A stretch of 56,904 nt of DNA from Flavobacteriales bacterium. Lineage in GTDB: Bacteria; Bacteroidota; Bacteroidia; Flavobacteriales_D; JAHECK01. Position numbers and translations under genes: made by a program. The stretch covers positions 1-56,904 of the forward strand of contig JAHECK010000003.1 of NCBI GenBank assembly GCA_024641785.1. The letters are read 5' to 3'. The notes beneath the pieces were generated by a model, which was not told the origin of the DNA, did no database searches, and worked only from the letters and a program-made list of their open reading frames with translations. Shown in pieces: positions 8,310-19,873 of this stretch (the first letter of the stretch is position 1; every line of letters starts with the position of its first letter).

Positions 8310-8606
8310 ATGGAAAATAATTTTTTTCTAGAGATTAGAACCCCGGATAAAGAGTTGTTTCATGGTGAAATAGATCAAGTGATTTTACCGGGAAAAGATG
8401 GTTCTTTTGGAATATTAAAAAACCATGCTCCTCTTATTGCCAGTCTTACTAAAGGACGTGTAAAAGTTGATGCGATCCGTGTAATTAATATGGCGATTAA
8501 TCCTATTGAAGGGGATGTTGCTAAAAAGGAAAATCAGTATTTATTCGAAATTGATGGCGGAGTAGTTGAGGTTTTGAATAATCATGTTACAGTACTTGTA
8601 GGATAA
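8310..8606 (+). CDS. atpC: F1F0 ATP synthase subunit epsilon
   Basis: 98-aa ORF immediately after atpD. The N-terminal beta-sandwich motif (L.I.TP....F.G....V.LPG..G.FGIL..HAP.I) is typical of AtpC. Confidence 0.85.
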   Translation: MENNFFLEIRTPDKELFHGEIDQVILPGKDGSFGILKNHAPLIASLTKGRVKVDAIRVINMAINPIEGDVAKKENQYLFEIDGGVVEVLNNHVTVLVG

Positions 8607-8624
8607 ACAAACAAGATATAATTG

Positions 8625-8657
8625 AAAAAGCTACTCCTAAGAGTAGCTTTTTTTTTG
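8625..8657 (+). terminator. Rho-independent terminator after atpC
   Basis: The stem agctactc (8629-8636) / gagtagct (8641-8648) has the loop ctaa and is followed by a 9-nt T-run. Confidence 0.8.
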
Positions 8658-9030
8658 TCTTTTTTGTGGGAATCAGAACGAAGAGAATTTATTTGGAACG
8701 GAAGTGTTTCATTTTCCATTTTTTATCGAAATAATTGTCCTTTTTAAGGTCCTTTAGATAATAAAATCAAATGCTTCTAATTACTCAATTTTCAAGGAGT
8801 TTTTATTTGAATAATCGCTTTGTATAACAATAATGAAAAGTATTTATTCATCTAATGATTTTTATAATAAAACGTATCATTCTCCCTTGTACGAAATGTT
8901 TACTTTATGAGTATTTAGATATAATATTTCACCCTTACGATTATATTATAAATGATTGGAATAGGTCAAAAAACATCCTCAAAAACCTTATATATATAGA
9001 TATAAATGATTGTTTTGGCGAACTTAACCC

Positions 9031-9038
9031 TACTTTTG
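9031..9038 (+). promoter_or_regulatory. Candidate -7 box (TAnnTTTG) far upstream of lipoprotein pair 1
   Basis: This tacttttg is the only exact TAnnTTTG match I found in the 8658-9375 spacer. If used, it implies a ~330-nt 5' leader. Confidence 0.3.
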
Positions 9039-9268
9039 TAGAAGTAATTTCTTAAAATATAAAATCATGTTTAAAGGAATTGTCAATCGGCCGGATCTCT
9101 ATATCCGGGCCATGAAATAATCCGACAAATAAGATTGCTTTTCATTCAATCCTCAGTTTGAAAATAATCTTATAAAGTAGCTCGGTATAGTGGATGAGCT
9201 ATTCTTTCTTCCATGTTATTGCACATATTAAGGGATCAATACTAACTAAAAACCAAAGATCATGAAAA

Positions 9269-9362
9269 ATGATATCTCGGGTAGGTCAGTATCGGTTGTA
9301 ATAAGGTACTGACCACAGATTACTCTAATTTCGGATAGTGCATTGTGCACTATTTACCTAAC
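9269..9362 (+). promoter_or_regulatory. Conserved structured leader element upstream of lipoprotein pair 1 (12-nt box + hairpin A + hairpin B + tacctaac)
   Basis: The box atgatatctcgg is at 9269-9280. Hairpin A is GGTCAGTATC (9284-9293) / GGTACTGACC (9305-9314). Hairpin B is atagtgca (9335-9342) / tgcactat (9346-9353). The tacctaac box is at 9355-9362, 13 nt before the ATG. The same architecture recurs at 12386-12485 with compensatory substitutions. Confidence 0.5.
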
Positions 9363-9375
9363 CAAATCTATTATT

Positions 9376-10317
9376 ATGTTTAAAAATATGAAATTAATAG
9401 GAGTCATCTTTCTATCAATACTTCTATTAACAAATTGTAAAAAAGATGATAAAGTGGCCGATAATGGTCAAGGAGAAGTTGTTTTCTCACCTAATCAAAC
9501 TTCAAACTTTGAGAAAAGTGCAGAAAATAACTGTGAACTCGAGGTTTCCTACGCAATGGTTGTAGTGAATGAAATGACCTACAATCTTCCCGTGTTCTAT
9601 ATCGATGGAATGCTTACTACACAAGCGATTAAACTTAATGCAGGGGACTATATACTTGAAGAGTTTATTCTAATGAATGATAATGAAACTCCGGAAATCC
9701 TGGATGATGATATCGTAGTAATGTCTTCAGTAAATGAAGAGGGAGAATTCGAGAGTTATGTCGATATGACACTCCCTTATGAGTTTACTGTAGAAGCATT
9801 CTTGAAAGTAGAGCTTCATGTAGAAGTGATCTGTTATTATCCTGAATATTATGACTGGTACGGATTTGAATTTTTCACCGTATGGGTAACTAATATTCAT
9901 GAATGGTACTTCTTTGGAGATTTATGTCTTGAATATCCAGATCTATATGAAGGAAGCTTATATGAATTGCAAACTGAAGGTTTACAAGCCGACGTTCCAG
10001 CTATTTTTGAGATCGAAGTATGGCGAAATGAAGAATACCTTGGCACTTTCAGCAATGAAAGCTATCTGGGTGAAGAAATGCCATTGAAAGTAATTTATGC
10101 GGATAGGGTAGGAATAGAAGATAATTACGAATTCAAACTATACGTTCTTGTTAATGTAGGCGAAGGATTCGATTATGAATATTTCTATACCTGGGCATTT
10201 ACCGACCTTGCAGAGCTTGATATGGGAGAAGATGGAGTTACTGATTTCGTAATTGGTGACTGTGTGTATGATGGAATTGACCTTGTACTTCCACCTTGGA
10301 TGGATTATCCTAACTAA
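9376..10317 (+). CDS. Uncharacterised surface-lipoprotein family, 'short' member of pair 1
   Basis: The start is set at MFKNMKLIGVIFLSILLLTNC by alignment with the three paralogs. It has a lipobox LLTNC followed by KKDD. It is roughly four-fifths identical (by eye) to the N-terminal ~310 aa of the next gene and ends at ..LPPWMDYPN. Confidence 0.85.
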   Translation: MFKNMKLIGVIFLSILLLTNCKKDDKVADNGQGEVVFSPNQTSNFEKSAENNCELEVSYAMVVVNEMTYNLPVFYIDGMLTTQAIKLNAGDYILEEFILMNDNETPEILDDDIVVMSSVNEEGEFESYVDMTLPYEFTVEAFLKVELHVEVICYYPEYYDWYGFEFFTVWVTNIHEWYFFGDLCLEYPDLYEGSLYELQTEGLQADVPAIFEIEVWRNEEYLGTFSNESYLGEEMPLKVIYADRVGIEDNYEFKLYVLVNVGEGFDYEYFYTWAFTDLAELDMGEDGVTDFVIGDCVYDGIDLVLPPWMDYPN

Positions 10318-10328
10318 TAATTAGTGTT

Positions 10329-11747
10329 ATGATGAATAATTTGAGATTAATAGGGGTCATCTTTTTATCAGTTCTTCTATTAACGAATTGTAAAAAAGAT
10401 GATAAAGTGACCGATAATGGTCAGGGAGAAGTTGTTTTTTCAACTAATAAAACATCAAATTTTGATAAGAGTGCAGAATCTAACTGTGAGTTAACTGTTT
10501 CTTATGCATTTGTTGTAGTGAATGAAATGACCTATAACCTGCCTGTATTCTATATTGATGGAATGATCACTACACAAGCCATTAAGCTTGATGCAGGGGA
10601 TTATACATTAGAGGAATTTATTCTAATGAATGATAATGAAACTCCTGAAATATTGGATGACGATATCGTGGTAATGGCCTCTGTAAATGAAGAGGGAGAA
10701 TTTGCGAATTATGTGGAAATGACCCTCCCTTATGATTTTACTGTAGAAGCTTTCTTAAAAGTTGAGCTTCATGTAGAAGTGATCTGTTATTATCCTGAAT
10801 ATTATGACTGGTACGGATTCGAATTTTTCACTGTATGGGTAACAAATATTCATGAATGGTTCTTCTTCGGAGATCTATGTCTGAAAGCACCTTACGAATA
10901 CGAAGAAAGCTTATACGCTGAACAAAGTCAGGGATTGCAAGTAGATGTTCCTGCTATTTTTGAAATTGAAGTATGGCGAAATGAAGAATACCTCACTACC
11001 TTCAGCAATGAAAGTTTCTTAGGGGAAAACAATCCTCTAAAAATCACTTATGCTGATAGAGAAGGTATTTTGGATGAGTATGAGTTAAGACTTAATGTAC
11101 TCGTTAAAGTGGGTGACGGATTTGAATATGTTTATTTCTACAGCTGGTTCTTTACTGATGTAGCTGAGCTTCCTACAAATGGGGATGGTGTTACCGACTT
11201 TGTGATCGGAAACTGCGTATATGATGCACCCGACTTGTTATTAGCTCCTTGGATGAATCTTCCTATGGGAATTACATATGACTGTGTTCACCCTGGTGAA
11301 AATAGCTATTTCGATATCACTTTAAGCAATATCGGTCCTGGTTATGATATCCAAAATGGAGGTCCATACGAAGGATGGTGTGCTGATCTTGATAATACGA
11401 TCGGTCCTGGTGCCTATATAATGGATGCAAAAAGTTCATTATATCCTGAACTTCTACCGGGAGTATGGCAATTGAAAGGGCCTGCGTTGAATGCTTGTAA
11501 CTGGTTGTTTAACAATCTCGATAATTATGTATATACACCTGAAGAAATGCAAGATGCATTATGGTGCCTATTTGATGGCGTACCATGTACAGGTGTTGGT
11601 GCAACTATGGTTGCAGATGCATTGAATCATCAAGACTTCTCTCCTCTTCCAGGAGGATGGGCTGCGGTTCTATTCTTTGATGTGAATGATGATCCATTTA
11701 TTAATACGGATCATACTCAAATCACATTTTTCGTGGTAGATCCATAA
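10329..11747 (+). CDS. Uncharacterised surface-lipoprotein family, 'long' member of pair 1, with extra ~160-aa C-terminal Cys/Gln-motif module
   Basis: 472-aa ORF starting 11 nt after the short gene. It has the same signal peptide and lipobox. The C-terminal extension contains GWCADL (Cys351, nt 11379-11381) and EMQDALW (Gln408, nt 11550-11552). Confidence 0.88.
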   Translation: MMNNLRLIGVIFLSVLLLTNCKKDDKVTDNGQGEVVFSTNKTSNFDKSAESNCELTVSYAFVVVNEMTYNLPVFYIDGMITTQAIKLDAGDYTLEEFILMNDNETPEILDDDIVVMASVNEEGEFANYVEMTLPYDFTVEAFLKVELHVEVICYYPEYYDWYGFEFFTVWVTNIHEWFFFGDLCLKAPYEYEESLYAEQSQGLQVDVPAIFEIEVWRNEEYLTTFSNESFLGENNPLKITYADREGILDEYELRLNVLVKVGDGFEYVYFYSWFFTDVAELPTNGDGVTDFVIGNCVYDAPDLLLAPWMNLPMGITYDCVHPGENSYFDITLSNIGPGYDIQNGGPYEGWCADLDNTIGPGAYIMDAKSSLYPELLPGVWQLKGPALNACNWLFNNLDNYVYTPEEMQDALWCLFDGVPCTGVGATMVADALNHQDFSPLPGGWAAVLFFDVNDDPFINTDHTQITFFVVDP

Positions 11748-11772
11748 AGCGATCAACTAATTAATTAAAAGG

Positions 11773-11798
11773 AGAGGCGGACATTCCGCCTCTTTTTG
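11773..11798 (+). terminator. Rho-independent terminator after lipoprotein pair 1
   Basis: The stem agaggcgg (11773-11780) / ccgcctct (11786-11793) has the loop acatt and is followed by ttttt. Confidence 0.8.
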
Positions 11799-11868
11799 TT
11801 TCTGTATTTTTTTTTGATAGGATATTTTACTTAGATCAATTTTTGTTTTTAATTTTTAATTTTAGGAT

Positions 11869-11889
11869 AATTATCACAATGTGATAATT
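11869..11889. promoter_or_regulatory. Perfect 10-1-10 palindrome (candidate operator)
   Basis: The sequence aattatcaca-a-tgtgataatt is a perfect inverted repeat in the AT-rich spacer upstream of lipoprotein pair 2. Confidence 0.3.
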
Positions 11890-11998
11890 TTTCTAAACGC
11901 TATTTTATTTATAAGTAAGTGTTGTTTATTTTACACAAATAGCCATAATAAATAAATTGCTGTTAGACTTTTTGTATAAGCGTTTAACTAATATCAAT

Positions 11999-12006
11999 TA
12001 TGTTTG
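11999..12006 (+). promoter_or_regulatory. Candidate -7 box (TAnnTTTG) far upstream of lipoprotein pair 2
   Basis: The sequence tatgtttg is an exact TAnnTTTG match. If used, it implies a ~490-nt leader. Confidence 0.25.
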
Positions 12007-12385
12007 GCTAAAAACACATTTTAGCTATATAAAGCCTAAATTAATCGATAAAAAACTTGCTTTAGACGAAGTTTCTGTCGTAAATTTATACAACCTAACA
12101 ATTAAGAAAACCGCGCAACAATGAATTTAGATATAAAGGAAATGCCAGCTTAGAAAAACTGATGCTGGCATTTTATTCGCACAAAAAGAATACGATCTAA
12201 GTCCTCAAAAGTAATCCTCATTTCCGGATCGTATTTAACTCATAAGTAAATTGACTTTTATTTCAAACTCAAAATTCTTTGATATGGAAATAAATTATAT
12301 CGGCTCGAATAGGCTACAGTTTTAAGCCGCTGTAGCCCGCTCCTCAAGACTTTTATAGTATTCATTTAAACTCAGACTATGCAAT

Positions 12386-12485
12386 ATGATATCTCGGTAA
12401 GGCCGGTATCATGATCATCTGGTACCGGCCAAGCTACACCCAAGTTTAAAAATAAACAGTACCTAAAGGGTGCTGAATACCTAAC
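12386..12485 (+). promoter_or_regulatory. Conserved structured leader element upstream of lipoprotein pair 2 (homolog of 9269-9362)
   Basis: The box atgatatctcgg is at 12386-12397. Hairpin A is GGCCGGTATC (12401-12410) / GGTACCGGCC (12421-12430). Hairpin B is cagtacc (12457-12463) / ggtgctg (12469-12475) with one G-U pair. The tacctaac box is at 12478-12485, 14 nt before the ATG. Confidence 0.5.
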
Positions 12486-12499
12486 TTAAATTAATAAAC

Positions 12500-13468
12500 A
12501 TGTTTAAAAATATAAAACTAATAGGAGTGATTTTTTTATCCGTACTTCTATTAACTAATTGTAAAAAAGATAATAAAGACGACTCTATGTCTCCCGGTGA
12601 AATGGTATTTGCCGCTATAGACTACGATGATACTGAAAAGGATGGATTTGATTTTTTCTGTGATGAGAATTTAATCGTTCATCATGCATATATCGTTCTG
12701 GAAAATGAAGATGCAGTTGAAAGTATCCATGAACCATTGACTTTTACTTTGGATAATAAATTATATACACAAAGTATAAAATTGGCTCCGGGCGATTATA
12801 TTATTAAAGAATTTGCTCTAATGTCTGAAGATAATCAAGTCGTAAAAGCAACTCCAATGCTAGGAGCTGATTTTGATGAGTATGTTTCCAATCCTATTGA
12901 TGATCTAGTTGATTTTCATATTACTGCTTTTGAAAAAGCACAATATGCTATTGATGTGCTGTGTTATATTCCAGCTGAATGGGACAACTTTGGTTTCGAA
13001 TGGTTTGAAGTAACTGAGATCACATTGAGAGAACAATGCTTCTTTGGCGATATCTGTATCGATGATTTTAACGCCTATGCCGGATCATTGTATGATAACC
13101 CACTAGTGAATGATGAGGTTGCTATTTATAAAATTCTGGTTTTTCGTGATCGTATAGATAATCCTTCACCAGTAGGTATGTTCTATAACACATATTATGA
13201 AAATGATGTATTAATGTATAGATCACCACTTTGCGTTCAATATGCAGATTATGATCTTGATGTCAATAACTTCGAATTTGAGTTATGGATCTTAACCAAT
13301 TTTGGCTACGAAAAATTCCATGTCTGGACTTTCACTGATGCTGAAAGAATTCCAAGTAATAATTTTGATTATGTTCCCGGATATGATGACGGAGTAGTGG
13401 ATTTCGTATTTGGTGACTGTGTAGTAACTCCTTCCGATTTAGTGCTAACTGGTCCTATTCCTAATTAA
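12500..13468 (+). CDS. Uncharacterised surface-lipoprotein family, 'short' member of pair 2
   Basis: The 322-aa product starts MFKNIKLIGVIFLSVLLLTNCKKDNKDD. It shares the Cys pattern and motifs of the family (TQSIKL.PGDY, VLCY, FGFEWFEVTEIT.REQCFFGD.CI, DGVV.FV.G.CV). Confidence 0.85.
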   Translation: MFKNIKLIGVIFLSVLLLTNCKKDNKDDSMSPGEMVFAAIDYDDTEKDGFDFFCDENLIVHHAYIVLENEDAVESIHEPLTFTLDNKLYTQSIKLAPGDYIIKEFALMSEDNQVVKATPMLGADFDEYVSNPIDDLVDFHITAFEKAQYAIDVLCYIPAEWDNFGFEWFEVTEITLREQCFFGDICIDDFNAYAGSLYDNPLVNDEVAIYKILVFRDRIDNPSPVGMFYNTYYENDVLMYRSPLCVQYADYDLDVNNFEFELWILTNFGYEKFHVWTFTDAERIPSNNFDYVPGYDDGVVDFVFGDCVVTPSDLVLTGPIPN

Positions 13469-13517
13469 AATAGACTAGTAATTAAATCAGATAATATTAA
13501 TTTAAAAAGAAAAAAAG

Positions 13518-14990
13518 ATGTTGAACAATATAAAATTAATAGGAGTTATATTTCTTTCAATTCTCCTGTTAACAAACTGTAAGAAAGAAGTACAAGACAC
13601 GCAACAACCCGGTGAATTGGTATTTGCTGCGATTGATGTGAATACTGAAAAAGATGGTATCGATCAGTGGGATATTATGTGTAACGAAACCCTGATACCT
13701 GTTAAAGCTAGAGTAAATTTAAATGGTGAATTTTATTACCCAGCTCTCTTTATGTCAGAAGGAAAATTATTAACTCAAAGTATAAAACTTCCTCCTGGAG
13801 ACTATACAATTTTGGAGTTTAGTTTATTAACTGCAGATGATATCGTAGTGAAATCAACTCCGATGGAAGGGTCTGATTTTGCCGATTACGTTTCCAATCC
13901 TATCGATGGTGATGTTGACTTTACTATTGCATCATTTGTGAAAAGTGAATTTGAGATGGATGTTCTTTGTTACCTTCAAGCATATTATGAAAGCTTTGGT
14001 TTCGAATGGTTTGAAGTAACTGAAATTACCATTAGAGAACAATGCTTCTTTGGTGACTTCTGTATTAAAGATGTCAATCAATATGCACAATCATTGTACG
14101 GACTTAATGGAGTTACTATTGATGAAAAAGCGATTTTCAAAATTCGATTAAATAAGTTTGATAATGATTTGAACGAGTATGTTTATTATGCAGAATTCTA
14201 CAACTTTAATAATGGTGTTTATACATCCCCTTTATGTGTTGAATATGCAGATTATGACGCTACAGATGATTTTTACCAAGCTGAATTATGGATCTACGTT
14301 ACCAGTGGTGAAACCTGGGATTATGTTTATTTCCATACCTGGGATTTTCAAGATGCTGAAAGTATCGAAGAGCTTTATGGTGTTGGAAATGATGGAGTAG
14401 TAGAATTTGTGTTAGGTAATTGTGTCGATGACGAAACCGATCTATTATTACCTCCTTGGATGAATTTACCAACAGGACCTGATTATGATTTTACATTATC
14501 TAATGGTGGTGTTGGGCCTGATGCATACTGGCATATGACAATAGGTGGGATAAGTAGTTCACTTTATGATATGCAGAATGTTACTAATTATCCTGGATGG
14601 TGTGCAGATGAATTTACAACTATTGGTAATGGAACCATCTGTATGGATGCAATAAATTCTCTATATCCTGATATGTTACCAACTTATTGGTTAGATGCAA
14701 TCCCTAGTGGAGCTAATGCGCTTACAAGAAAACAAGCTATTTGTGCTGCAAACTGGTTGTGGAATAATGAAGCGATGTATGCACCATATACTTTTATGGA
14801 AATGCAAAATGCACTTTGGAATCTATTTAATAATTTAAATGTGGGGACTTCAGGTAAATCCTTTGTTATGGCTGATGCAGCCAGAGATCATCTTGATTAT
14901 TCACCATTGCCAGGTGGATGGGCCGCTATTTTCTTTGTGCCTTGTGATGATTCACAACTTCAAATGACCTTCTTCGTGGTTGATCCATGA
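13518..14990 (+). CDS. Uncharacterised surface-lipoprotein family, 'long' member of pair 2, with C-terminal Cys/Gln-motif module
   Basis: 490-aa ORF with the same signal peptide and lipobox. The C-terminal module has GWCADE (Cys362, nt 14601-14603) and EMQNALW (Gln430, nt 14805-14807). It ends in the shared motifs SPLPGGWAA and TFFVVDP. Confidence 0.88.
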   Translation: MLNNIKLIGVIFLSILLLTNCKKEVQDTQQPGELVFAAIDVNTEKDGIDQWDIMCNETLIPVKARVNLNGEFYYPALFMSEGKLLTQSIKLPPGDYTILEFSLLTADDIVVKSTPMEGSDFADYVSNPIDGDVDFTIASFVKSEFEMDVLCYLQAYYESFGFEWFEVTEITIREQCFFGDFCIKDVNQYAQSLYGLNGVTIDEKAIFKIRLNKFDNDLNEYVYYAEFYNFNNGVYTSPLCVEYADYDATDDFYQAELWIYVTSGETWDYVYFHTWDFQDAESIEELYGVGNDGVVEFVLGNCVDDETDLLLPPWMNLPTGPDYDFTLSNGGVGPDAYWHMTIGGISSSLYDMQNVTNYPGWCADEFTTIGNGTICMDAINSLYPDMLPTYWLDAIPSGANALTRKQAICAANWLWNNEAMYAPYTFMEMQNALWNLFNNLNVGTSGKSFVMADAARDHLDYSPLPGGWAAIFFVPCDDSQLQMTFFVVDP

Positions 14991-15011: not shown

Positions 15012-15041
15012 GAAAAAGACGGGCACAGCCCGTCTTTTTTA
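15012..15041 (+). terminator. Rho-independent terminator after lipoprotein pair 2
   Basis: The stem gacgggc (15018-15024) / gcccgtc (15028-15034) has the loop aca and is followed by tttttt. Confidence 0.85.
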
Positions 15042-15226: not shown

Positions 15227-18200
15227 ATGAGCGGTCAAACAAAAGTGAAGTATCCAGGAAAAAGAATTACTACCAATGGGAACCTATTGGTATCATCTAC
15301 AGAAGCATTAATAGCACAGGGTGGGGTATTCTATCCGATCACCCCTTCCACAGAAATGGGGGAGAATTTTCAGTTGCATTTTGCTAAAGGCGATCTGAAT
15401 GCCTTTGGAGAAAATCTGATGGCAATCGAAGCCGAAGGAGAACACGCAGCACAAGGTGGTGCCATCGCCATGTCGGTAACCGGTAAGCGAACGGTTAACT
15501 TTACCTCCGGTCAGGGGATCATCTATGGTTTAGAGCAATATTATCATGCACCCGGTAAATTAAGTACCATGGTGTTAGAAGTAGGTGCAAGAGCACTTAC
15601 AAAACATGCCTTAAACGTGCATTGTGGTCACGATGACCTTTATGCCACTTTCGATACCGGTTGGACGATCCTGATGAGTAAAGATGCTCAACAAGCGGCC
15701 GACCAAGCTTTGATCTTACGTAAAGTCAATGAGATCTGTCTGAATCCCGGAATAAATGCCCAAGACGGTTTTTTAACAACTCACCTCGAACGTACTTTTT
15801 TAAAACCCGAAGCAGCCCTTGTTAGAGAATACCTTGGCGCTCCAGATGATATTATCGAATGTCCGACAGAAGGACAAATAGAATTATTTGGCCCAACACG
15901 ACGAAGAGTACCAAAGATCATCGACCTGAAAAATCCTATCGTTCTTGGTCCGGTTCAAAACCAGGAGCATTATATGAATGGAGTTGCAGCCCGAAGAAAT
16001 AATTTCTCTGAACATATTTTAGAAACACTTGAAGCAGCTTACGAAGAATATGCCGAATTAACAGGCCGCTCTTATGGATTGATCTCTCAATACAGATGCG
16101 AGGATGCAGATACTGTTTTCGTTGCCTTAGGTTCAGCCGCAGAGAATATAGAAGCCATGGTCGATCACCTTCGAGCCAATAGCGATGCGAAAGTAGGAGT
16201 GATCCATGTAAATGTTTTACGTCCTTTCCCCGAAAAAGCGATCATTGATGCGCTAAAAGGAAAAGATAATGTGATTATTTTAGAACGGACCGACGAACAA
16301 CTTGCAGGTGATAATCCACTCACAAGAGATATTCGATCTTCTCTTAGTAAAGCAGAAGCAAATCACAGAGATCTTTCTTTTGCTGATTTACCAAGCATTG
16401 ATCCTAAAACCGAAATGCCTCATTTATTTTCCGGCGTTTATGGTTTAGGTTCAAGAGATTTTAGACCCGAACATATTTTAGGAGCTTATGAATATGCCTC
16501 TGGAAAAGGAAAACGTAAAGATGGAAAAACAGCGAAAGATGGTGAGTCTTTCTTCTATTTAGGGATCGATCATCCTTATGCCGTTATTTCAAAACAAAAT
16601 CCATCCGGCTTACCTAAAGGTTCTATCGCTGTTCGTTTTCATTCTATAGGAGGATGGGGAATGATCACTACCGGTAAAAACCTTGGAATGATCTTAGGTG
16701 AATTTTCAAATTATATTGCCGAAAGAGATCAGTTAAAAGAAGAGGATGGAAGTCCGAAGGAAGTGATCCATATCTCTGCTAATCCAAAATACGGATCAGA
16801 GAAAAAAGGAGCCCCTACCAATTATTTTATGGTAGCAGCGCCCGAAAGAATTCGAGTTAATTGCGATCTGCAACATGTAAATGTGGTTTTATGCCCAGAC
16901 CCTAAAATTTTCCTACATACCGATCCATTAGCCGGATTGCGCAAAGGAGGTTCATTTATTTGGGAATCGAGCGAAACCGATCCTGCAAAAGCATGGGAAC
17001 GAATTCCAAGAAAATACCGAAAAGAATTGATCGATAACGAGATCAAAGTATATATTTTAAATGGTTTTGATATCGCGAAAAAAGCCACTCAAAAAGAAGA
17101 ATTACAAACCCGTATGCAAGGGAACTCCTTCTTGGGCGCCTTCTTTAGCGTTTCTACTTTCTTATCTGATAACCATATTCCAAACAACGAATTTCTTGAA
17201 ACAGTAAATGAGCAATACAAGAAAAAATTCGGTCGTTTTGGCGATGCGGTTGTAGAATCGAATATGATGGTAATGAAGGCCGGTTTTGAGCAGATCATAG
17301 AAGTGCCTGTAGGTGAGATCGATGCTCCTGATAAGTCACATTTCATCGCTTCTGTAATCTCCCCTTGTGAGGTTGATCTCAGTGAAGAAGAGATCTATGA
17401 AGGAGAAGAAAAAGCACCGATGTTTAAAATGTCAACCTTCGATAAGGAATTTAGAAATGGCCTTGGTTATCACCAGCCTTCTTCTGTACTTTCTTCAGTT
17501 GGATTAGTTGCTGCCGGTACCGGAGAGACTGCAAGTAAATATGTTGCACGAAGAGAAGTACCACGTTTTATTGCTGCTAATTGTACTCAGTGTATGGATT
17601 GTATAACGGATTGTCCTGATACAGCTTTACCTAATACAGCACAGGATATCTCAACAGTGGTTGCAACGGCGGTTCGGCATTATGTAAGTGATGAAGACGA
17701 TCGTCAAAGCTTATTGAAAGGAATTGATAAACTGGATAAAACAGTTCGTGCAGAAATGATCATGCGGGCTGCGATAAGTGATGACCAAAGTTTATTCTCT
17801 GATATCGTTTTGAAAAATATCGTCGAATTGAATTTGATCAGCAAAGATTCAGCCGCTTATTCAGAGTTAAGCGCCATTATGGAAACGCTTCCTTTTGCCT
17901 TTCATAAAGCGAAAGCTATTTTCGGAAATAAAGAAAATAAAGAACCGGGTGAAGGAGGAATTTTTGGAATCTTTGTAAATGACCTTTGTAAGGGATGTGG
18001 CGCATGTGTCGAAGCTTGTGGCCACGGAGCGCTGGAGATGATCTCTGAAAAAGAAGATATCCATGCAAATTATAAATCTTCAATTAAATTTTTAGATCTA
18101 TTATCCAATACACCAAGAAAATATCTAGGTCTTTTCAACCCTGAAAATCCTGAAGAATCGAAAGCAGCAGCATTGAAAAATCACATGATGCTTCGCTCAA

Positions 18201-19873
18201 AATACAATGCATTGGTTTCAGGAGATGGAGCTTGTGCCGGTTGTGGAGAAAAATCGGTATTGCATGCCATCGCCACCTTAACCGAAACAATGATGCGTCC
18301 GATTTACCATCATAAAGCAGATCGTTTTAATGAGAAAGCGGATCAGCTGGAAAAAGTTGGATTAGCCAATTTGATGGAATTAAAGAAAAAAGATGAATCC
18401 GCATATTTTTCATTCCGACGAACTATTTTACATCTTTTGATGGGTTTAGGAGCCGAGAATACTAAGGTAACGGATAAAATGATCGAAGATGAATTTGATG
18501 GGGAAGATGCTGATATCATTAACTCTCTGATCGTAGTTCTTCGTCAGGAAGCATTTAACCATAAATACCTGCAAGCGATCGAAGGAAGATTTCCAAATGG
18601 AATGACTGCGATGGCAATGACCGCAAATACCGGTTGTAATAGTGTTTATGGATCAACTCCTCCAAATAATCCACATCCTTATCCATGGATGAATTCATTA
18701 TTCCAGGATGGGGCAACAATTGGTTGGCTTATTGGCGAAAGTTTTATTTATGATCATGCAAAAAGATCGGTTATTCCTGAGCGATTAAGCGATACAGTGA
18801 TAGGAGGATTTAAAAAATCATACAGCGATAAGGACTACTTTAAGTATACTCACTTCACTGATTTTGATATGACGGATGATGAGGTGATGGAAATGCCGAA
18901 AGTATGGGCCATTGGTGGTGATGGAGGAATGGGAGATATCGGTTTCCAGAATGTTTCTAAAGCAGTGCTTCAAAATCGACCTAATGTAAATATCATGTTA
19001 TTGGATACTCAAGTGTATTCAAATACAGGAGGACAAAATTCTGATTCTTCACCGATGACAGGTGGTTTTGATATGAATCAGTTTGGGGCTGCTTCTGAAG
19101 GAAAACAAACCGAAAGAAAATCAGTAGCTGAAGCCTTTTTAGGTGGACATGGTTCTCCATACATTGCTCAAGTTTCTTTTGCTAATTCAGCAACTTTGTT
19201 TAAATCATTGCTCGATGGTTTGTACTATAGAGGTACTGCTTTTTTCCAGGCCTTTACTTCATGTATGCCGGAACATGGTATTCCGGATCATGCAGCACAG
19301 ATTCAAGCCCTTCGATTAAGAGATAGTAGAGGAATGGCCGAATTTGTATATGATCCTTCATTAGGAGAGCGTTACGATGATACTTTGAATATAAGAAGTA
19401 ATCAGGCTTATGACAGAGACTGGGCTCAAAAAGTGATTCCGGTAACTCGTAAACGATATGATTATACCGTTGCACATTGGACATTCACTGAAGCTCGTTT
19501 CAGATACCATCATAAAATCGTGAAGAAAGAAGCGACTGAAGGTATGATCTCTCTTGAAGACAAGATCAAATTCGTATCGATGAATGATATCGTTCATCGT
19601 CGTCATACGAATCCTGAACATCGTTCATATATTCAAGATTTTGGAGTATATACGATCGATTACGATAATGAAGGAAATGAGGTTTATCACATACTTTCTC
19701 GTCAGATGGTTGCATTTGTAGTAGAAAGAAGAAAAGCATGGAGGATCCTTCAAAGTCGCGCAGGAGTGGTTAATAAAGATTATATAGAGCAACGTAACTT
19801 ACTTAGCCGAATGGATAAGGAAGGACTTTCTCAAAACGATATATTAAGTGAGATAGCTGCAAGTTTAAATTAA
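15227..19873 (+). CDS. Unusually long fused pyruvate/2-oxoacid:ferredoxin(flavodoxin) oxidoreductase (PFOR/NifJ-type)
   Basis: 1548-aa ORF. It has an N-terminal PFOR domain I (GGVFYPITPSTEMGE), a gamma-like domain (IGGWGMITTGKNLG) and two 4Fe-4S motifs (CTQCMDCITDCP and CKGCGACVEAC). It also has the TPP-binding motif GGDGGMGDIGF...N.VYSNTGGQ. Confidence 0.9.
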   Translation: MSGQTKVKYPGKRITTNGNLLVSSTEALIAQGGVFYPITPSTEMGENFQLHFAKGDLNAFGENLMAIEAEGEHAAQGGAIAMSVTGKRTVNFTSGQGIIYGLEQYYHAPGKLSTMVLEVGARALTKHALNVHCGHDDLYATFDTGWTILMSKDAQQAADQALILRKVNEICLNPGINAQDGFLTTHLERTFLKPEAALVREYLGAPDDIIECPTEGQIELFGPTRRRVPKIIDLKNPIVLGPVQNQEHYMNGVAARRNNFSEHILETLEAAYEEYAELTGRSYGLISQYRCEDADTVFVALGSAAENIEAMVDHLRANSDAKVGVIHVNVLRPFPEKAIIDALKGKDNVIILERTDEQLAGDNPLTRDIRSSLSKAEANHRDLSFADLPSIDPKTEMPHLFSGVYGLGSRDFRPEHILGAYEYASGKGKRKDGKTAKDGESFFYLGIDHPYAVISKQNPSGLPKGSIAVRFHSIGGWGMITTGKNLGMILGEFSNYIAERDQLKEEDGSPKEVIHISANPKYGSEKKGAPTNYFMVAAPERIRVNCDLQHVNVVLCPDPKIFLHTDPLAGLRKGGSFIWESSETDPAKAWERIPRKYRKELIDNEIKVYILNGFDIAKKATQKEELQTRMQGNSFLGAFFSVSTFLSDNHIPNNEFLETVNEQYKKKFGRFGDAVVESNMMVMKAGFEQIIEVPVGEIDAPDKSHFIASVISPCEVDLSEEEIYEGEEKAPMFKMSTFDKEFRNGLGYHQPSSVLSSVGLVAAGTGETASKYVARREVPRFIAANCTQCMDCITDCPDTALPNTAQDISTVVATAVRHYVSDEDDRQSLLKGIDKLDKTVRAEMIMRAAISDDQSLFSDIVLKNIVELNLISKDSAAYSELSAIMETLPFAFHKAKAIFGNKENKEPGEGGIFGIFVNDLCKGCGACVEACGHGALEMISEKEDIHANYKSSIKFLDLLSNTPRKYLGLFNPENPEESKAAALKNHMMLRSKYNALVSGDGACAGCGEKSVLHAIATLTETMMRPIYHHKADRFNEKADQLEKVGLANLMELKKKDESAYFSFRRTILHLLMGLGAENTKVTDKMIEDEFDGEDADIINSLIVVLRQEAFNHKYLQAIEGRFPNGMTAMAMTANTGCNSVYGSTPPNNPHPYPWMNSLFQDGATIGWLIGESFIYDHAKRSVIPERLSDTVIGGFKKSYSDKDYFKYTHFTDFDMTDDEVMEMPKVWAIGGDGGMGDIGFQNVSKAVLQNRPNVNIMLLDTQVYSNTGGQNSDSSPMTGGFDMNQFGAASEGKQTERKSVAEAFLGGHGSPYIAQVSFANSATLFKSLLDGLYYRGTAFFQAFTSCMPEHGIPDHAAQIQALRLRDSRGMAEFVYDPSLGERYDDTLNIRSNQAYDRDWAQKVIPVTRKRYDYTVAHWTFTEARFRYHHKIVKKEATEGMISLEDKIKFVSMNDIVHRRHTNPEHRSYIQDFGVYTIDYDNEGNEVYHILSRQMVAFVVERRKAWRILQSRAGVVNKDYIEQRNLLSRMDKEGLSQNDILSEIAASLN

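What the first reader, a model, noticed from the sequence alone, without database searches (positions are those of the whole stretch)
9376..14990. Two tandem 'short + long' gene pairs encoding an unrecognised surface-lipoprotein family
Four ORFs (9376-10317, 10329-11747, 12500-13468, 13518-14990) are clear paralogs, and I cannot place them in any family I know.

- **Signal peptide:** All four share an almost invariant signal peptide and lipobox (LIGVIFLS[IV]LLLTNC). This holds even though the mature parts of pair 1 and pair 2 are only about one-third identical by eye.
- **Surface export:** Residues +2 to +5 after the lipid Cys (KKDD, KKDD, KKDN, KKEV) fit the K-(D/E)2 lipoprotein export signal reported for surface-exposed Bacteroidetes lipoproteins.
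- **Pair layout:** Each pair is a ~320-aa 'short' gene followed closely (11 nt and 49 nt gaps) by a 'long' gene. The long gene has the same ~310-aa body plus a ~160-aa extra C-terminal module. The pair 1 short protein stops at the domain boundary (..LPPWMDYPN*) where the long proteins continue (..APWMNLP.. / ..PPWMNLP..). The pair 2 short protein stops at the aligned position (..LVLTGPIPN*).
- **Divergence:** Pair 1 members are roughly four-fifths identical, with a 56-nt perfectly identical run (9811-9866 = 10764-10819). This suggests recent duplication or gene conversion. Pair 2 members are about half identical.
- **Conserved residues:** Cys positions (NCE, V[IL]CY, FFGD.C, G.CV) and very acidic, aromatic-rich sequence are conserved.
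- **Transcription units:** Each pair has its own ~0.7 kb AT-rich upstream region and its own strong terminator.

The block sits between housekeeping atpDC and a PFOR gene, like an inserted accessory module.
Basis: partly seen in the sequence, partly recalled or inferred. Interest (0 to 1): 0.8.

Follow-up and report, generated by a model that had tools for sequence, protein, structure and literature searches.

The report
Bacteroidota lipoproteins carrying hidden thioester domains
Two tandem gene pairs encode probable outer-membrane surface lipoproteins, and the longer member of each pair ends in a domain that matches, by predicted fold and conserved Cys/Gln residues, the 'thioester' warhead that Gram-positive pathogens use to bond covalently to their targets; the literature searched here describes that device only in Gram-positive bacteria.

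Summary
Four paralogous lipoprotein genes form two short+long pairs, and each pair has its own AT-rich spacer and terminator.

**What they are.**
- The ~290-aa body has no Pfam or NCBIfam family. It is predicted as two beta-sandwich domains with three covarying Cys pairs.
- The ~170-aa C-terminal module of the long genes is a divergent Class-I-like thioester domain (TED).

**Evidence for the TED.**
- The top 22 PDB hits of a domain-only AlphaFold model are all TEDs.
- A Cys, a helix Gln/Trp and a last-strand Gln are conserved in 63-64 of 64 homologs.
- A profile of the module links to a cyanobacterial protein that passes Pfam's TED threshold (hhalign probability 98.3%).

**Most likely function.** These are lipid-anchored surface proteins whose stalk presents a covalent-adhesion warhead. 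The thioester bond, surface exposure and target are untested.

- The locus is syntenic in related genomes, so it is not an insertion.
- Patchy gene conversion, not recent duplication, explains the similarity within pair 1.
- A conserved two-hairpin leader precedes each pair.

Homologs come almost only from uncultured Bacteroidota and are annotated as hypothetical. This is a new variant of a known kind.

The parts
9255..9375 (+). Conserved structured leader of pair 1. It has an invariant box ATGATATCTCGG (9269-9280), hairpin 1 (9284-9314), hairpin 2 (9333-9355) and an A-rich run up to the ATG.
   Evidence: (D7). Nine copies were found in five genomes or contigs, and every one precedes a gene of this family. 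Of the base-pair cells, 96.5% are paired, against 27-45% in slid controls. Six pairs show compensatory double changes. None of 500 shuffles reaches the observed covariation score. No Rfam family reaches its gathering score here.
9376..10317 (+). S1, the short lipoprotein of pair 1 (313 aa). It has a signal peptide and lipobox (Cys21 at 9436-9438), the export-signal-like CKKDD, and a two-domain body, and it ends in the linker PPWMDYPN. It has no thioester domain.
   Evidence: dN/dS is 0.13 against its L001 ortholog.
10329..11747 (+). L1, the long lipoprotein of pair 1 (472 aa). The body spans residues 22-305 and the C-terminal thioester domain spans residues 306-472 (nt 11244-11744). The candidate thioester Cys351 is at 11379-11381, the helix Gln408/Trp412 at 11550-11564, and the candidate thioester Gln464 at 11718-11720.
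   Evidence: L1 is a row of alignments A2 and A3, which were used for the models and profiles. dN/dS of the TED part is about 0.04.
11769..11797 (+). Terminator-like hairpin with a T-run after pair 1.
   Evidence: 13-pair stem with 6 GC pairs, followed by a T-run.
12372..12499 (+). Conserved structured leader of pair 2. It has the box at 12386-12397, hairpin 1 at 12401-12430 (with a compensatory G-C change relative to the pair 1 copy) and hairpin 2 at about 12454-12478.
12500..13468 (+). S2, the short lipoprotein of pair 2 (322 aa). Lipobox Cys21 is followed by KKDN. The body carries all six conserved Cys, and there is no thioester domain.
   Evidence: Short orthologs exist in L001 (68% identity) and L050 (57%). 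dN/dS is 0.18.
13518..14990 (+). L2, the long lipoprotein of pair 2 (490 aa). The body spans residues 22-311 and the thioester domain spans residues 312-490 (nt 14451-14987). The candidate thioester Cys362 is at 14601-14603, the helix Gln430/Trp434 at 14805-14819, and the candidate thioester Gln482 at 14961-14963.
   Evidence: The full-length AlphaFold model has pLDDT 87. The domain-only model has pLDDT 86 and pTM 0.86. Foldseek results are, conservation and coordinates.
15012..15040 (+). Terminator-like hairpin with a T-run after pair 2.
   Evidence: 13-pair stem with 6 GC pairs, followed by a T-run.
8654..9254 (.). Unconserved AT-rich spacer (about 29% GC) between the atpC terminator and leader 1. 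The equivalent spacer before leader 2 is 11798-12371.
   Evidence: Only the last ~140 nt of each intergenic region is conserved between paralogs and genomes, and no small ORF is shared.

Best explanation
The four genes encode N-terminally lipidated outer-membrane proteins that are probably flipped to the cell surface.

- **Scaffold.** Each has a ~290-aa scaffold of two beta-sandwich domains, probably stapled by up to three disulfides.
- **Warhead.** In the long members, the scaffold presents a C-terminal Class-I-like thioester domain at the end far from the membrane.
- **Chemistry.** By analogy with Gram-positive TEDs, the buried Cys (L1 C351, L2 C362) and the last-strand Gln (L1 Q464, L2 Q482) would form an internal thioester spontaneously on folding. 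A nucleophile on a target, typically a Lys amine, would then attack this bond and leave the bacterium covalently tethered.
- **Short members.** These are maintained, co-transcribed stalk-only paralogs of unknown role. A partner or spacer role is pure speculation.
- **Regulation.** Each pair is one transcription unit behind a conserved two-hairpin 5' leader and ends at its own terminator.

**Shown here:** gene structure, paralogy, lipobox, the TED fold prediction, conservation of the motif residues, remote sequence homology to Pfam-recognised TEDs, purifying selection, synteny and leader covariation.

**Inferred:** disulfide pairing, surface exposure, thioester formation, covalent adhesion, and that the leader acts as RNA.
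For: **Fold**
- The domain-only model (pLDDT 86, pTM 0.86) returns TEDs as its top 22 PDB hits: SfbI 5a0l (E=3.8e-6), Cpa 4c0z, CpTIE 5a0g/5a0d, Cpa 2xid/2xic/4bug and BaTIE 6fwv.
- The first 15 hits have probability 1.00 and TM 0.45-0.55. The next non-TED hit has E>1 and probability <=0.03.
- The full-length model finds the same TEDs.

**Topology**
- The secondary-structure order matches the published Class I layout.
- It runs: beta strands (the Cys immediately follows the third strand), a short alpha0, three helices with Gln/Trp on the second, a 12-residue linker, and two strands with the Gln at the start of the last.

**Motifs in 64 homologs**
- W-C-[GA]-D: Cys in 63 of 64, Asp in 61 of 64.
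- [IML]-Q-x-A-[ILV]-W: Gln and Trp in 64 of 64.
- Q-x-x-F-x-V-V-D-P: Gln in 63 of 64.
- Cys-Gln spacing is 113-120 residues, against 129 in CpTIE and 153 in PnTIE.

**Unpaired Cys**
- The six body Cys co-occur strictly in pairs: 55-151, 182-302 and 176-240.
- C362 has no Cys partner, and it persists in the two sequences that lack all the body Cys.

**Sequence bridge**
- The module profile hits P0216 at E=1e-25 over residues 334-488.
- Pfam TED PF08341 scores 56.3 bits on the same region (376-480), against a gathering cutoff of 22.
- hhalign gives 98.3% probability and E=1.5e-14. It aligns GWC[AG]D with GYCLD and IQxAIW with IQRAIW.
- NCBI names fragments in the P0216 cluster 'thioester domain-containing protein'.

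**Constraint**
- dN/dS of the TED is about 0.04, the lowest value in the protein.

**Anchor and export**
- A lipobox is present in 111 of 120 homologs. Position +3 is K in 108 of 111 and +4 is D or E in 94 of 111, resembling the C. canimorsus export signal CQKDDE.

**Stalk-like body**
- The body's structural hits are BT_0210 (E=1e-8) and the shaft pilin SpaA.
Against: - **Direct HMM tests fail.** None of 38 modules hits Pfam TED, Pfam TED_2 or an NCBIfam TED model, even at E<=10. No PDB TED is found by sequence profile. A control weakens this objection: the validated pLS20 TED barely passes Pfam and finds no PDB TED by phmmer.
- **Structural similarity is moderate.** TM is about 0.5 and rmsd 5-7 A.
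- **The motifs deviate from the published ones.**
  - Trp replaces [YFL] before the Cys in 52 of 64 sequences.
  - Gly or Ala sits at the hydrophobic position after the Cys.
  - A hydrophobic residue follows the last-strand Gln where the motif expects a hydrophilic one.
- **The hhalign alignment is incomplete.** It stops before the last strand, so the Gln equivalence rests on topology and conservation.
- **The export signal is incomplete.** The strict signal is present only in pair 1, and in 37 of 111 family members.
- **No experimental handle exists.** No cultured organism, expression data or target is known.
- **The short paralogs are unexplained.**
Confidence: 0.6

Rival explanations
1. The C-terminal module has the TED fold but no longer forms a thioester. 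It would then be a non-covalent binding head on a surface lipoprotein.
For: The motifs deviate from the published consensus: W replaces [YFL], G or A sits at the hydrophobic position, and a hydrophobic residue follows the Gln. The curated TED HMMs do not recognise the module. No chemistry was tested.
Against: The two residues that matter for the bond are conserved in 63 of 64 homologs down to about 30% identity. The helix Gln and Trp that pack on the bond are invariant. C362 has no disulfide partner and survives the loss of all other conserved Cys. [quoted passage not shown] The module has the lowest dN/dS in the protein.
Confidence: 0.15
2. The proteins are periplasm-facing lipoproteins of the outer-membrane inner leaflet. 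Their thioester would trap or tag invading molecules, such as proteases, which is functionally like the bacterial alpha-2-macroglobulin lipoproteins.
For: Thioester-bearing lipoproteins in Gram-negative bacteria have a precedent in E. coli alpha-2-macroglobulin (PMC4498604, listed). Pair 2 lacks the strict export signal.
Against: The fold is the Gram-positive adhesin-type TED, not the alpha-2-macroglobulin type. Complement and TEP structures appear only as weak body hits with probability <=0.18, and they are absent from the domain-only search. There is no CxEQ motif, because the Cys and Gln lie 113-120 residues apart. K at +3 and D/E at +4 after the lipid Cys are almost universal in the family and resemble the surface-export signal. 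Relatives of the module occur in proteins with secretion-related domain hits, namely a weak T9SS sorting-domain hit and RTX repeats.
Confidence: 0.08
3. Short and long proteins are subunits of a polymer, by analogy with type V pili or Gram-positive pili. The short protein would be the shaft and the long one the tip adhesin.
For: Short and long genes are conserved as co-oriented pairs behind one leader. The body resembles the shaft pilin SpaA (E about 1e-4) and weakly resembles BACOVA_04078, a 'putative cell adhesion protein' structure. From my own knowledge, type V pilins are lipoprotein precursors.
Against: From my own knowledge, PDB holds many FimA/Mfa-type pilin structures, yet the search shows only one weak 'putative cell adhesion protein' hit (3up6, probability 0.15-0.18). 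No pilus assembly, usher, sortase or protease gene is conserved nearby. In Bacteroidales most arrays are long+long. The lipid anchor would have to be removed for polymerisation, and no conserved cleavage site was identified, although this was not searched for systematically.
Confidence: 0.07
4. The C-terminal module is a cysteine-dependent enzyme, such as a peptidase or a transglutaminase-like protein, and not an adhesin warhead.
For: There is a nearly invariant Cys, and a frequent His occurs in the motif H-x-[DF]-x-P-L-P-G-G-W.
Against: No peptidase or transglutaminase structure appears among the fold hits, which are exclusively TEDs. The His does not reach 90% conservation. The invariant partners are Gln, Trp and Gln, as in TEDs.
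Confidence: 0.04

Closest known systems
Class I thioester domains of Gram-positive TIE adhesins (SfbI, Cpa and FbaB of S. pyogenes; CpTIE of C. perfringens)
   Same: The predicted fold is the same, a beta-barrel plus a three-helix bundle. The order of elements is the same, and the alpha3-to-strand-P linker is short. A conserved Cys lies in an aromatic-C-small-acidic motif, Q..(A)(I/L)W lies on the central helix, and a conserved Gln lies on the last strand. The domain sits at the end of the protein far from the anchor, on a beta-sandwich stalk.
   Different: - The host is a diderm (Bacteroidota), not Firmicutes or Actinobacteria.
- The anchor is an N-terminal lipid, not a C-terminal LPXTG/sortase link, so the TED is C-terminal and not N-terminal.
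- The stalk is an unannotated Cys-pair-rich scaffold, not isopeptide (CnaB/SdrD_B) or ester domains.
- Sequence identity is 10-15%, and the Pfam and NCBIfam TED models do not detect the module.
- Trp replaces [YFL] before the Cys.
- The thioester has not been demonstrated.
Auto-annotated 'thioester domain-containing' SdrD_B/RTX adhesins of the cyanobacterium Coleofasciculus (P0216 cluster), and other multi-domain proteins carrying the same module
   Same: They carry the same TED subfamily at the sequence level (profile E=1e-25; hhalign 98.3%). They show that this branch of TEDs occurs in diderm bacteria.
   Different: Those are large proteins (about 600 to 3,300 aa) with up to 5 TED modules. 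They carry isopeptide-type stalk domains (SdrD_B, DUF7507, DUF11), and some also carry RTX repeats or a weak hit to the T9SS sorting domain. The window's proteins are small lipoproteins with one TED and a different stalk. Pfam recognises the TED in P0216, but not in the window's family.
BT_0210 of Bacteroides thetaiotaomicron (PDB 4ecn), N-terminal part
   Same: It is the best structural match of the N-terminal body (Foldseek E=9.8e-9, probability 1.00). It is also from Bacteroidota.
   Different: TM-scores are low (0.10-0.16) over 274 columns. No sequence-level similarity is found. BT_0210 continues into leucine-rich repeats, not a TED, and its function is unknown.
Surface-exposed Bacteroidetes lipoproteins bearing the lipoprotein export signal (Lauber et al. 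2016, PMC5080379)
   Same: They share the lipobox Cys followed by (K/Q)-K-(D/E). S1 and L1 have the full K-D-D at +3..+5.
   Different: S2 and L2 have only one acidic residue in the motif, which was a weak signal experimentally. Export was not tested, and the cargo is unrelated to Sus-like systems.
Bacterial alpha-2-macroglobulin lipoproteins (E. coli ECAM/YfhM type)
   Same: They are Gram-negative lipoproteins that carry a reactive internal Cys-Gln thioester.
   Different: The fold is unrelated and the motif differs. From my own knowledge, the alpha-2-macroglobulin thioester sits in a CxEQ motif within a helical thioester domain and the protein is periplasmic. Here the Cys and Gln are 113-120 residues apart in an adhesin-type TED.

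Membership tests
Bacterial thioester domain (TED), Class I | Fold: a six-stranded beta-barrel plus a three-helix bundle | tested here: met
   The domain-only AlphaFold model (pLDDT 86, pTM 0.86) returns TEDs as its top 22 Foldseek PDB hits. The first 15 have probability 1.00 and TM 0.45-0.55. The next non-TED hit has E>1. This is a prediction, not a solved structure.
Bacterial thioester domain (TED), Class I | Bond-forming Cys in a [YFL]-C-hydrophobic-hydrophilic motif on a beta strand | tested here: met
   The motif here is W/F/Y-C-[GA]-D. Cys is present in 63 of 64 sequences and Asp in 61 of 64. The preceding aromatic residue is W in 52, F in 5 and Y in 4. The Cys immediately follows predicted strand 355-361. 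Trp and Gly/Ala deviate from the letter of the motif. hhalign aligns this Cys with the YCLD Cys of a Pfam-positive TED.
Bacterial thioester domain (TED), Class I | Bond-forming Gln in a (weak) hydrophobic-Q-hydrophilic-hydrophobic-hydrophobic motif on the last beta strand | tested here: inconclusive
   Q482 is present in 63 of 64 sequences at the start of the last predicted strand, 113-120 residues after the Cys. The residue after Gln is hydrophobic, not hydrophilic. The hhalign alignment ends before this strand. The Cys-Gln distance could not be measured because no coordinates were available.
Bacterial thioester domain (TED), Class I | TQxx(hydrophobic)W motif on helix alpha2, adjacent to the bond | tested here: met
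   The motif here is [IML]-Q-x-A-[ILV]-W on predicted helix 426-438. Gln and Trp are present in 64 of 64 sequences. Thr is replaced by a hydrophobic residue. The motif aligns with IQRAIW of P0216.
Bacterial thioester domain (TED), Class I | Class I versus Class II: a short linker of about 10 residues between alpha3 and strand P, no beta-sandwich insert, and alpha0 present | tested here: met
   The linker is 12 residues (456-467). No insert is present. A short helix (389-392) precedes alpha1. The best structural matches are Class I TEDs, and the Class II BaTIE scores only probability 0.1.
Bacterial thioester domain (TED), Class I | Recognition by the curated sequence models (Pfam PF08341 TED, PF20610 TED_2; NCBIfam TED models) | tested here: not met
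   None of 38 modules hits these models, even at E<=10. In the control, the validated pLS20 TED scores only 28.8 against a cutoff of 27, and 23.6 against 22. A transitive link exists: the module profile matches P0216 at E=1e-25, and Pfam TED scores 56.3 bits on the same region.
Bacterial thioester domain (TED), Class I | Presence of the internal Cys-Gln thioester (-17 Da, amine-reactive) | not testable with these tools
   This needs intact-mass MS of recombinant protein and of the C362A and Q482A variants, or a structure with coordinates.
TIE proteins (thioester-isopeptide-ester adhesins of Gram-positive bacteria) | N-terminal TED, a stalk of isopeptide (CnaA/B) or ester domains, and a C-terminal LPXTG sortase anchor | tested here: not met
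   The TED is C-terminal and the anchor is an N-terminal lipobox. The body has no CnaB, SdrD_B or DUF11 hit. Instead it has three covarying Cys pairs. No sortase gene lies nearby. The logic is the same (anchor, stalk, distal TED), but this is not a member.
Bacteroidetes surface lipoproteins with a lipoprotein export signal (LES) | Lipobox Cys followed by K-(D/E)2 or Q-A-(D/E)2 within +2..+6 | tested here: inconclusive
   S1 and L1 have C-K-K-D-D, which meets the motif. S2 (C-K-K-D-N) and L2 (C-K-K-E-V) have a single acidic residue, which was a weak signal in the defining study. In the family, the strict motif is present in 37 of 111 proteins, K at +3 in 108 of 111, and at least two acidic residues within +2..+8 in 94 of 111. 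Surface exposure was not tested.
Bacterial alpha-2-macroglobulins | CxEQ thioester motif in a helical thioester domain flanked by macroglobulin domains | tested here: not met
   The defining feature is stated from my own knowledge. There is no CxEQ motif, and the Cys and Gln are 113-120 residues apart. The domain-only fold search returns no alpha-2-macroglobulin or complement thioester domain.
Type V (FimA/Mfa) pilins of Bacteroidota | Fold match of the lipoprotein precursor to FimA-family two-domain pilins | tested here: not met
   There is only one weak hit to a 'putative cell adhesion protein' structure (3up6; E=0.02, probability 0.15-0.18). From my own knowledge, PDB holds many FimA/Mfa-type structures. 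No pilus accessory genes lie nearby.

The most novel reading that the evidence does not exclude
Covalent, thioester-mediated adhesion is not confined to Gram-positive bacteria. A large, mostly unannotated branch of TEDs exists (at least 2,168 clusters at 50% identity match the module profile). It is deployed by diderm bacteria on three kinds of chassis:
- small surface lipoproteins such as those in this window;
- proteins with a (weak) T9SS sorting-domain hit;
- RTX-type, probably T1SS-secreted, adhesins.

In this Flavobacteriales lineage it forms a dedicated two-gene module. A stalk-only protein and a stalk-plus-warhead protein sit behind a previously undescribed structured RNA leader, are duplicated, and are homogenised by gene conversion. 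Uncultured aquatic and sediment Bacteroidota could then weld themselves to particles, hosts or prey.
Probability: 0.45. Interest if true: 0.78.

Novelty: new variant of a known kind. Interest (0 to 1): 0.62.

Why it matters
**Where the field stands.** Thioester domains are the only known bacterial device for forming a covalent bond to a target surface. Every paper found here, up to April 2026, treats them as a feature of Gram-positive Firmicutes and Actinobacteria.

**What would change if the prediction holds.**
- Covalent adhesion would extend to Bacteroidota, on a completely different chassis: a lipid anchor, a disulfide-type stalk and a C-terminal warhead.
- It would expose a branch of TEDs that current HMMs miss, with thousands of clusters in metagenomes.

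**Practical value.**
- It gives a function to a family that is annotated only as 'hypothetical protein'.
- It offers new TED scaffolds for protein-ligation tools.
- It raises an ecological question about what uncultured particle- or host-associated Bacteroidota bind covalently.

**Testability.** The prediction is cheap to test by checking for a -17 Da mass shift that is lost in a Cys or Gln mutant.

**Side finding.** The structured leader is a separate, small addition to the few cis-regulatory RNAs known in Bacteroidota.

Tried and rejected
**Searches that found nothing**
1. Direct family assignment. Pfam and NCBIfam scans of all four proteins, of 64 full-length homologs and of 38 isolated C-modules gave nothing significant. 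The faint DUF4458 and DUF7632 hints did not recur: DUF4458 hit only 6 of 64 members, with a best E-value of 0.11.
2. Sequence-profile searches of PDB with the full-length and C-module alignments. The only hit was a spurious designed armadillo repeat matching 'IQxAIW'.
3. Using the pLS20 TED as bait to pull solved TED sequences for a profile-profile test. phmmer found no TED in PDB. The run is still useful as a control, because it shows how divergent TEDs are.
4. Rfam on the whole block at a permissive threshold. Nothing came near a gathering score. The hits at 8515-8734 overlap the atpC terminator.
5. A search for a conserved small ORF or other conserved element in the ~0.75-kb spacers. None was found beyond the ~140-nt leader.
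6. A search for conserved accessory genes (sortase, transporter, usher, protease) around homologs in five other genomic contexts. None was found.
7. Pfam scans of the alternative C-terminal heads of related proteins. They gave no hit.

**Ideas considered and rejected**
- A cysteine peptidase or transglutaminase-like fold, because of the fold hits and the lack of a conserved His.
- An alpha-2-macroglobulin-type thioester, because the fold and motif differ.
- A type V pilin, because there is no convincing fold match.
- A horizontally inserted island, because the locus is syntenic and has native composition.

**Limits and caveats**
- The metagenome pattern scan for the leader gave 10 hits, of which 6 were GC-rich coding sequences matching by chance.
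- The percentages printed are inflated 100-fold by a unit slip. The corrected values are used in this report.

Full report

Yes, in every particular.

- *ORFs and identity.* The four ORFs lie at 9376-10317 (S1, 313 aa), 10329-11747 (L1, 472 aa), 12500-13468 (S2, 322 aa) and 13518-14990 (L2, 490 aa). They align along their whole length. Over the mature body, S1-L1 is 81% identical, S2-L2 is 54%, and the two pairs are 37-40% identical to each other.
- *Signal peptide.* The signal peptide and lipobox LIGVIFLS[IV]LLLTNC are invariant. Between the pairs the signal peptide is 83-91% identical, against 36-40% for the body. Homologs from other genomes carry nearly the same signal peptide. Its conservation is therefore a family trait and not only a local effect.
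- *Layout.* The gaps are 11 and 49 nt. S1 stops inside the linker motif PPWMDYPN, at the point where the long proteins continue with [AP]PWMNLP. The 56-nt identical run is exact.
- *Composition.* The mature proteins are very acidic and aromatic-rich, and unusually poor in Lys and Arg (3.3-5.3%) (the printed percentages are 100-fold too high).
- *Flanks.* The upstream spacers are 769 and 752 nt at 29-30% GC. Terminator-like hairpins follow atpC, L1 and L2.
- *Selection.* All four genes are under purifying selection against the syntenic genome L001. dN/dS is 0.13 for S1, 0.09 for L1 and 0.18 for S2, against 0.06 for AtpD. dS is near saturation, so these values are approximate. The short genes are therefore maintained genes and not decaying truncations.

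**2. What is the body?**

- *Sequence.* The ~290-aa N-terminal body has no significant match in Pfam or NCBIfam, whether tested on the four proteins or on 64 homologs. Its profile matches no PDB sequence.
- *Fold.* AlphaFold models the full-length L2 confidently from a 64-sequence alignment (mean pLDDT 87). The body appears as two nearly all-beta domains. Its best structural matches are the N-terminal part of BT_0210 from B. thetaiotaomicron (4ecn, E=1e-8) and the Gram-positive shaft pilin SpaA (E about 1e-4). These are generic beta-sandwich, stalk-like folds.
- *Cysteines.* Six conserved Cys co-occur strictly in pairs across 64 homologs.
  - 55 with 151: both present in 61, both absent in 3, never one alone.
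  - 182 with 302: the same 61 / 3 / 0 pattern.
  - 176 with 240: both present in 52, both absent in 11, one alone in 1.
  - I read these as three disulfides. This is an inference, because no coordinates were available. Pair 1 in the window lacks the 176-240 pair.

**3. What is the extra C-terminal module?**

It is a thioester domain (TED). The consensus of the module drew my attention because of GWC[GA]D and IQxAIW. The literature defines three sequence features for bacterial TEDs:
- a bond-forming Cys in [YFL]C-hydrophobic-hydrophilic on a beta strand;
- a central-helix motif TQxx(hydrophobic)W that packs on the bond;
- a bond-forming Gln in a weak motif on the last strand.

The fold is a beta-barrel plus a three-helix bundle. 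In Class I, a ~10-residue linker joins helix 3 to the last two strands.

Four independent lines fit this definition.

(a) *Fold.* A domain-only model (pLDDT 86, pTM 0.86) returns TEDs as its top 22 PDB hits, and nothing else of note.
- The hits are SfbI, both Cpa TEDs, CpTIE and BaTIE.
- The first 15 have probability 1.00 and TM 0.45-0.55.
- The next non-TED hit has E>1.
- The full-length model finds the same domains.

(b) *Topology.* The order and spacing of the predicted elements reproduce the Class I layout, including a 12-residue linker and a short alpha0.

(c) *Residues.* In 64 homologs, down to about 30% identity, the Cys is present in 63, the helix Gln and Trp in all 64, and the last-strand Gln in 63.
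- The Cys has no cysteine partner and persists in sequences that have lost all the body Cys.
- The Cys-Gln spacing is 113-120 residues, against 129 and 153 in solved Class I TEDs.

(d) *Sequence bridge.* An exhaustive HMMER search with the module profile finds 2,168 cluster representatives at E<=1e-3.
- One of them, P0216, matches at E=1e-25 over residues 334-488.
- Pfam's curated TED model scores 56.3 bits on the same region, against a cutoff of 22.
- hhalign gives 98.3% probability and aligns the two Cys motifs and the two Q..W motifs.
- P0216 belongs to the cyanobacterium Coleofasciculus. NCBI names members of its cluster 'thioester domain-containing protein', 'type I secretion C-terminal target domain' and 'SdrD B-like'.

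*Weaknesses.*
- The curated HMMs do not detect any of 38 modules, even at E<=10.
- The motifs deviate in detail: Trp replaces Tyr/Phe/Leu, Gly or Ala sits after the Cys, and a hydrophobic residue follows the Gln.
- TM-scores are moderate.
- The hhalign alignment stops before the last strand.
- I could not measure the Cys-Gln distance.

A control tempers the first weakness. The experimentally validated TED of plasmid pLS20 barely passes Pfam (28.8 bits against 27, and 23.6 against 22), and by phmmer it finds no solved TED. TEDs are notoriously divergent in sequence.

**4. Anchor and orientation.**

- A lipobox Cys is present in 111 of 120 homologs.
- The positions after it are strongly conserved: +2 is K or Q in 79 of 111, +3 is K in 108, and +4 is D or E in 94. 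This resembles the C. canimorsus lipoprotein export signal C-Q-K-D-D-E, whose minimal form is K-(D/E)2.
- S1 and L1 meet the strict motif. S2 (KDN) and L2 (KEV) have one acidic residue, which was a weak signal in the defining experiments.
- Surface exposure is therefore likely but not shown.
- With the lipid at the N-terminus and the TED at the C-terminus, the warhead sits at the end far from the membrane. This is the mirror image of Gram-positive TIE proteins, which have an N-terminal TED and a C-terminal LPXTG anchor.

**5. Genomic context and evolution.**

- *Distribution.* All 49 genome loci found are from uncultured metagenome-assembled genomes. They are Bacteroidales, Lentimicrobiaceae and Flavobacteriales, apart from two labelled Chlorobiota and one labelled only 'uncultured bacterium'. 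None comes from a cultured isolate.
- *Arrays.* The genes form tandem arrays of one to about eight copies. Most arrays in Bacteroidales are long+long. The short+long layout is seen in the Flavobacteriales relatives.
- *Partners.* No accessory gene is conserved around them.
- *Synteny.* The position between atpDC and the PFOR gene is conserved.
  - L001 has the same two pairs, including the 11-nt spacer.
  - L050 has one pair.
  - L051 has the long gene and the same downstream genes.
  - GC and GC3 match the neighbouring genes.
  - The block is therefore native and stable, not an insertion.
- *Gene conversion.* In both the window and L001, S1 and L1 are closer to each other (81-83%) than to their orthologs (72-76%). 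The duplication therefore predates the split of the two genomes, and patchy gene conversion homogenises pair 1. Synonymous divergence within the pair is still high, so conversion is local, as in the 56-nt run. Pair 2 short and long genes are separate orthologous lineages.
- *Rate.* These proteins evolve much faster than AtpD, which is 91% identical between the two genomes.

**6. A structured leader.**

Only the last ~140 nt of each spacer is conserved.
- It holds an invariant box ATGATATCTCGG, which occurs exactly twice in the window, followed by two hairpins.
- Nine copies were collected: two in the window, two in L001, one in L050 and four on metagenome contigs. Each lies 104-112 nt upstream of a family gene.
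- On these nine copies, 96.5% of pair cells are paired, against 27-45% in slid controls. Six of 19 pairs show compensatory double changes. None of 500 shuffles reaches the observed covariation score.
- The search pattern fixed part of hairpin 1, but not its covarying positions and none of hairpin 2.
- No T-run follows either hairpin, so it is not an intrinsic terminator.
- No Rfam family matches.
- I regard it as a probable 5'-UTR regulatory or stabilising structure. Its function is unknown.

**7. Mechanism, with its status marked.**

- *Shown:* gene structure, paralogy, lipobox, predicted fold, conserved residues, remote homology, selection, synteny and leader covariation.
- *Inferred:* lipidation and export to the surface; three disulfides in the stalk; autocatalytic Cys-Gln thioester formation; attack by a target amine giving a covalent tether.
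- *Unknown:* the target, the role of the short stalk-only paralogs, and the conditions of expression.
- The very low Lys content of the TED (median 1.6%) would fit avoidance of self-reaction, but that is speculation.

**8. Comparison with what is known, and novelty.**

- The closest known kind is the Class I TED of Gram-positive TIE adhesins. The domain passes the fold, Cys-motif, helix-motif and class tests. The Gln test is inconclusive. The direct HMM test fails.
- The whole protein is not a TIE protein. It has no isopeptide or ester stalk and no LPXTG, and its polarity is reversed.
- It is not an alpha-2-macroglobulin-type thioester protein, and it is not a type V pilin.
- Papers up to April 2026 describe TEDs as Gram-positive. 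A 2025 survey extended isopeptide stalk domains to Gram-negative adhesins, but not TEDs.
- Automated annotation does already label some diderm proteins as TED-containing, so 'TEDs in diderms' is not wholly new to the databases.
- New here:
  - a Bacteroidota lipoprotein family, annotated only as hypothetical, that carries a TED invisible to current models;
  - its chassis of lipid anchor, Cys-pair stalk and C-terminal TED;
  - the size of the hidden branch.
- I rate it a new variant of a known kind.

**9. Verdict.**

The 'unrecognised family' resolves into an unannotated stalk plus a recognisable, though cryptic, thioester warhead. The 'inserted module' idea is wrong. Interest is moderate to high. 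The prediction is specific, would be surprising to specialists in bacterial adhesion, and can be tested with one mass-spectrometry experiment.

Noticed in passing
window 9255-9375 and 12372-12499; also L001 6927-7050 and 10137-10263, L050 8905-9031, L057, L060, L061, L064: A conserved two-hairpin leader with an invariant ATGATATCTCGG box lies 104-112 nt upstream of the first gene of each pair. It shows compensatory base changes and matches no Rfam family. Its function is unknown.
   Followed up: yes
window 9376-11747 compared with L001 7048-9419: Pair 1 evolves in concert. S1 and L1 are 81-83% identical within each genome, but only 72-76% identical to their orthologs, although both genomes share the layout and the 11-nt spacer. 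This indicates patchy gene conversion, and the 56-nt identical run is one such tract.
   Followed up: yes
P0034, P0036, P0043, P0052 (homologs); loci L067 and L068: The same N-terminal body also occurs fused to at least two other C-terminal modules of about 140 aa that have no Pfam match. These genes sit in a different locus, as a tandem of 453 and 466 aa followed by a DUF3667 gene. The body therefore looks like a general display scaffold with exchangeable heads.
   Followed up: partly
P0121, P0122, P0143, P0187, P0216, P0217, P0225, P0244, P0250: The TED-like module occurs in at least 2,168 clusters at 50% identity, including giant proteins with up to 5 copies. It is combined there with DUF7507, DUF11 and SdrD_B stalk domains, PKD or cadherin-like domains, RTX repeats or a weak hit to the T9SS sorting domain. 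Most copies are not recognised by Pfam TED. The taxonomy of these proteins was checked only for the P0216 cluster, which is from Coleofasciculus.
   Followed up: partly
window 14451-14987 and family alignment A2: The thioester domain is strikingly Lys-poor (median 1.6% Lys, against 4.1% in the body), and the whole mature proteins have only 3.3-5.3% K+R. This might limit self-reaction of a Lys-reactive warhead, or it might simply reflect an acidic surface protein.
   Followed up: partly
window 15227-19873: The downstream pyruvate:ferredoxin-oxidoreductase-type ORF is 1,548 aa as a single reading frame. In the related contig L051 the same region is called as two genes of 1,095 and 461 aa that overlap by about 25 nt. 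That could be a frameshift or an assembly difference in L051.
   Followed up: no
L051 1030-3561: In this relative, the place where the short gene should be holds only small ORFs of 37-71 aa. The long protein P0014 also has an aberrant C-terminus (...QMTLTWLTHDVVFVTNKKRRARPVFFCLNLL instead of ...QMTFFVVDP). This suggests decay or sequencing errors in that contig.
   Followed up: no
window 227-3163 (minus strand): By synteny with L050, this 978-aa ORF is probably the counterpart of a 990-aa protein there that has GEVED, a faint CARDB hit and a weak Por_Secre_tail hit. If so, it would be a candidate T9SS-secreted surface protein a few kb from the lipoprotein block. Orthology was not verified.
   Followed up: no
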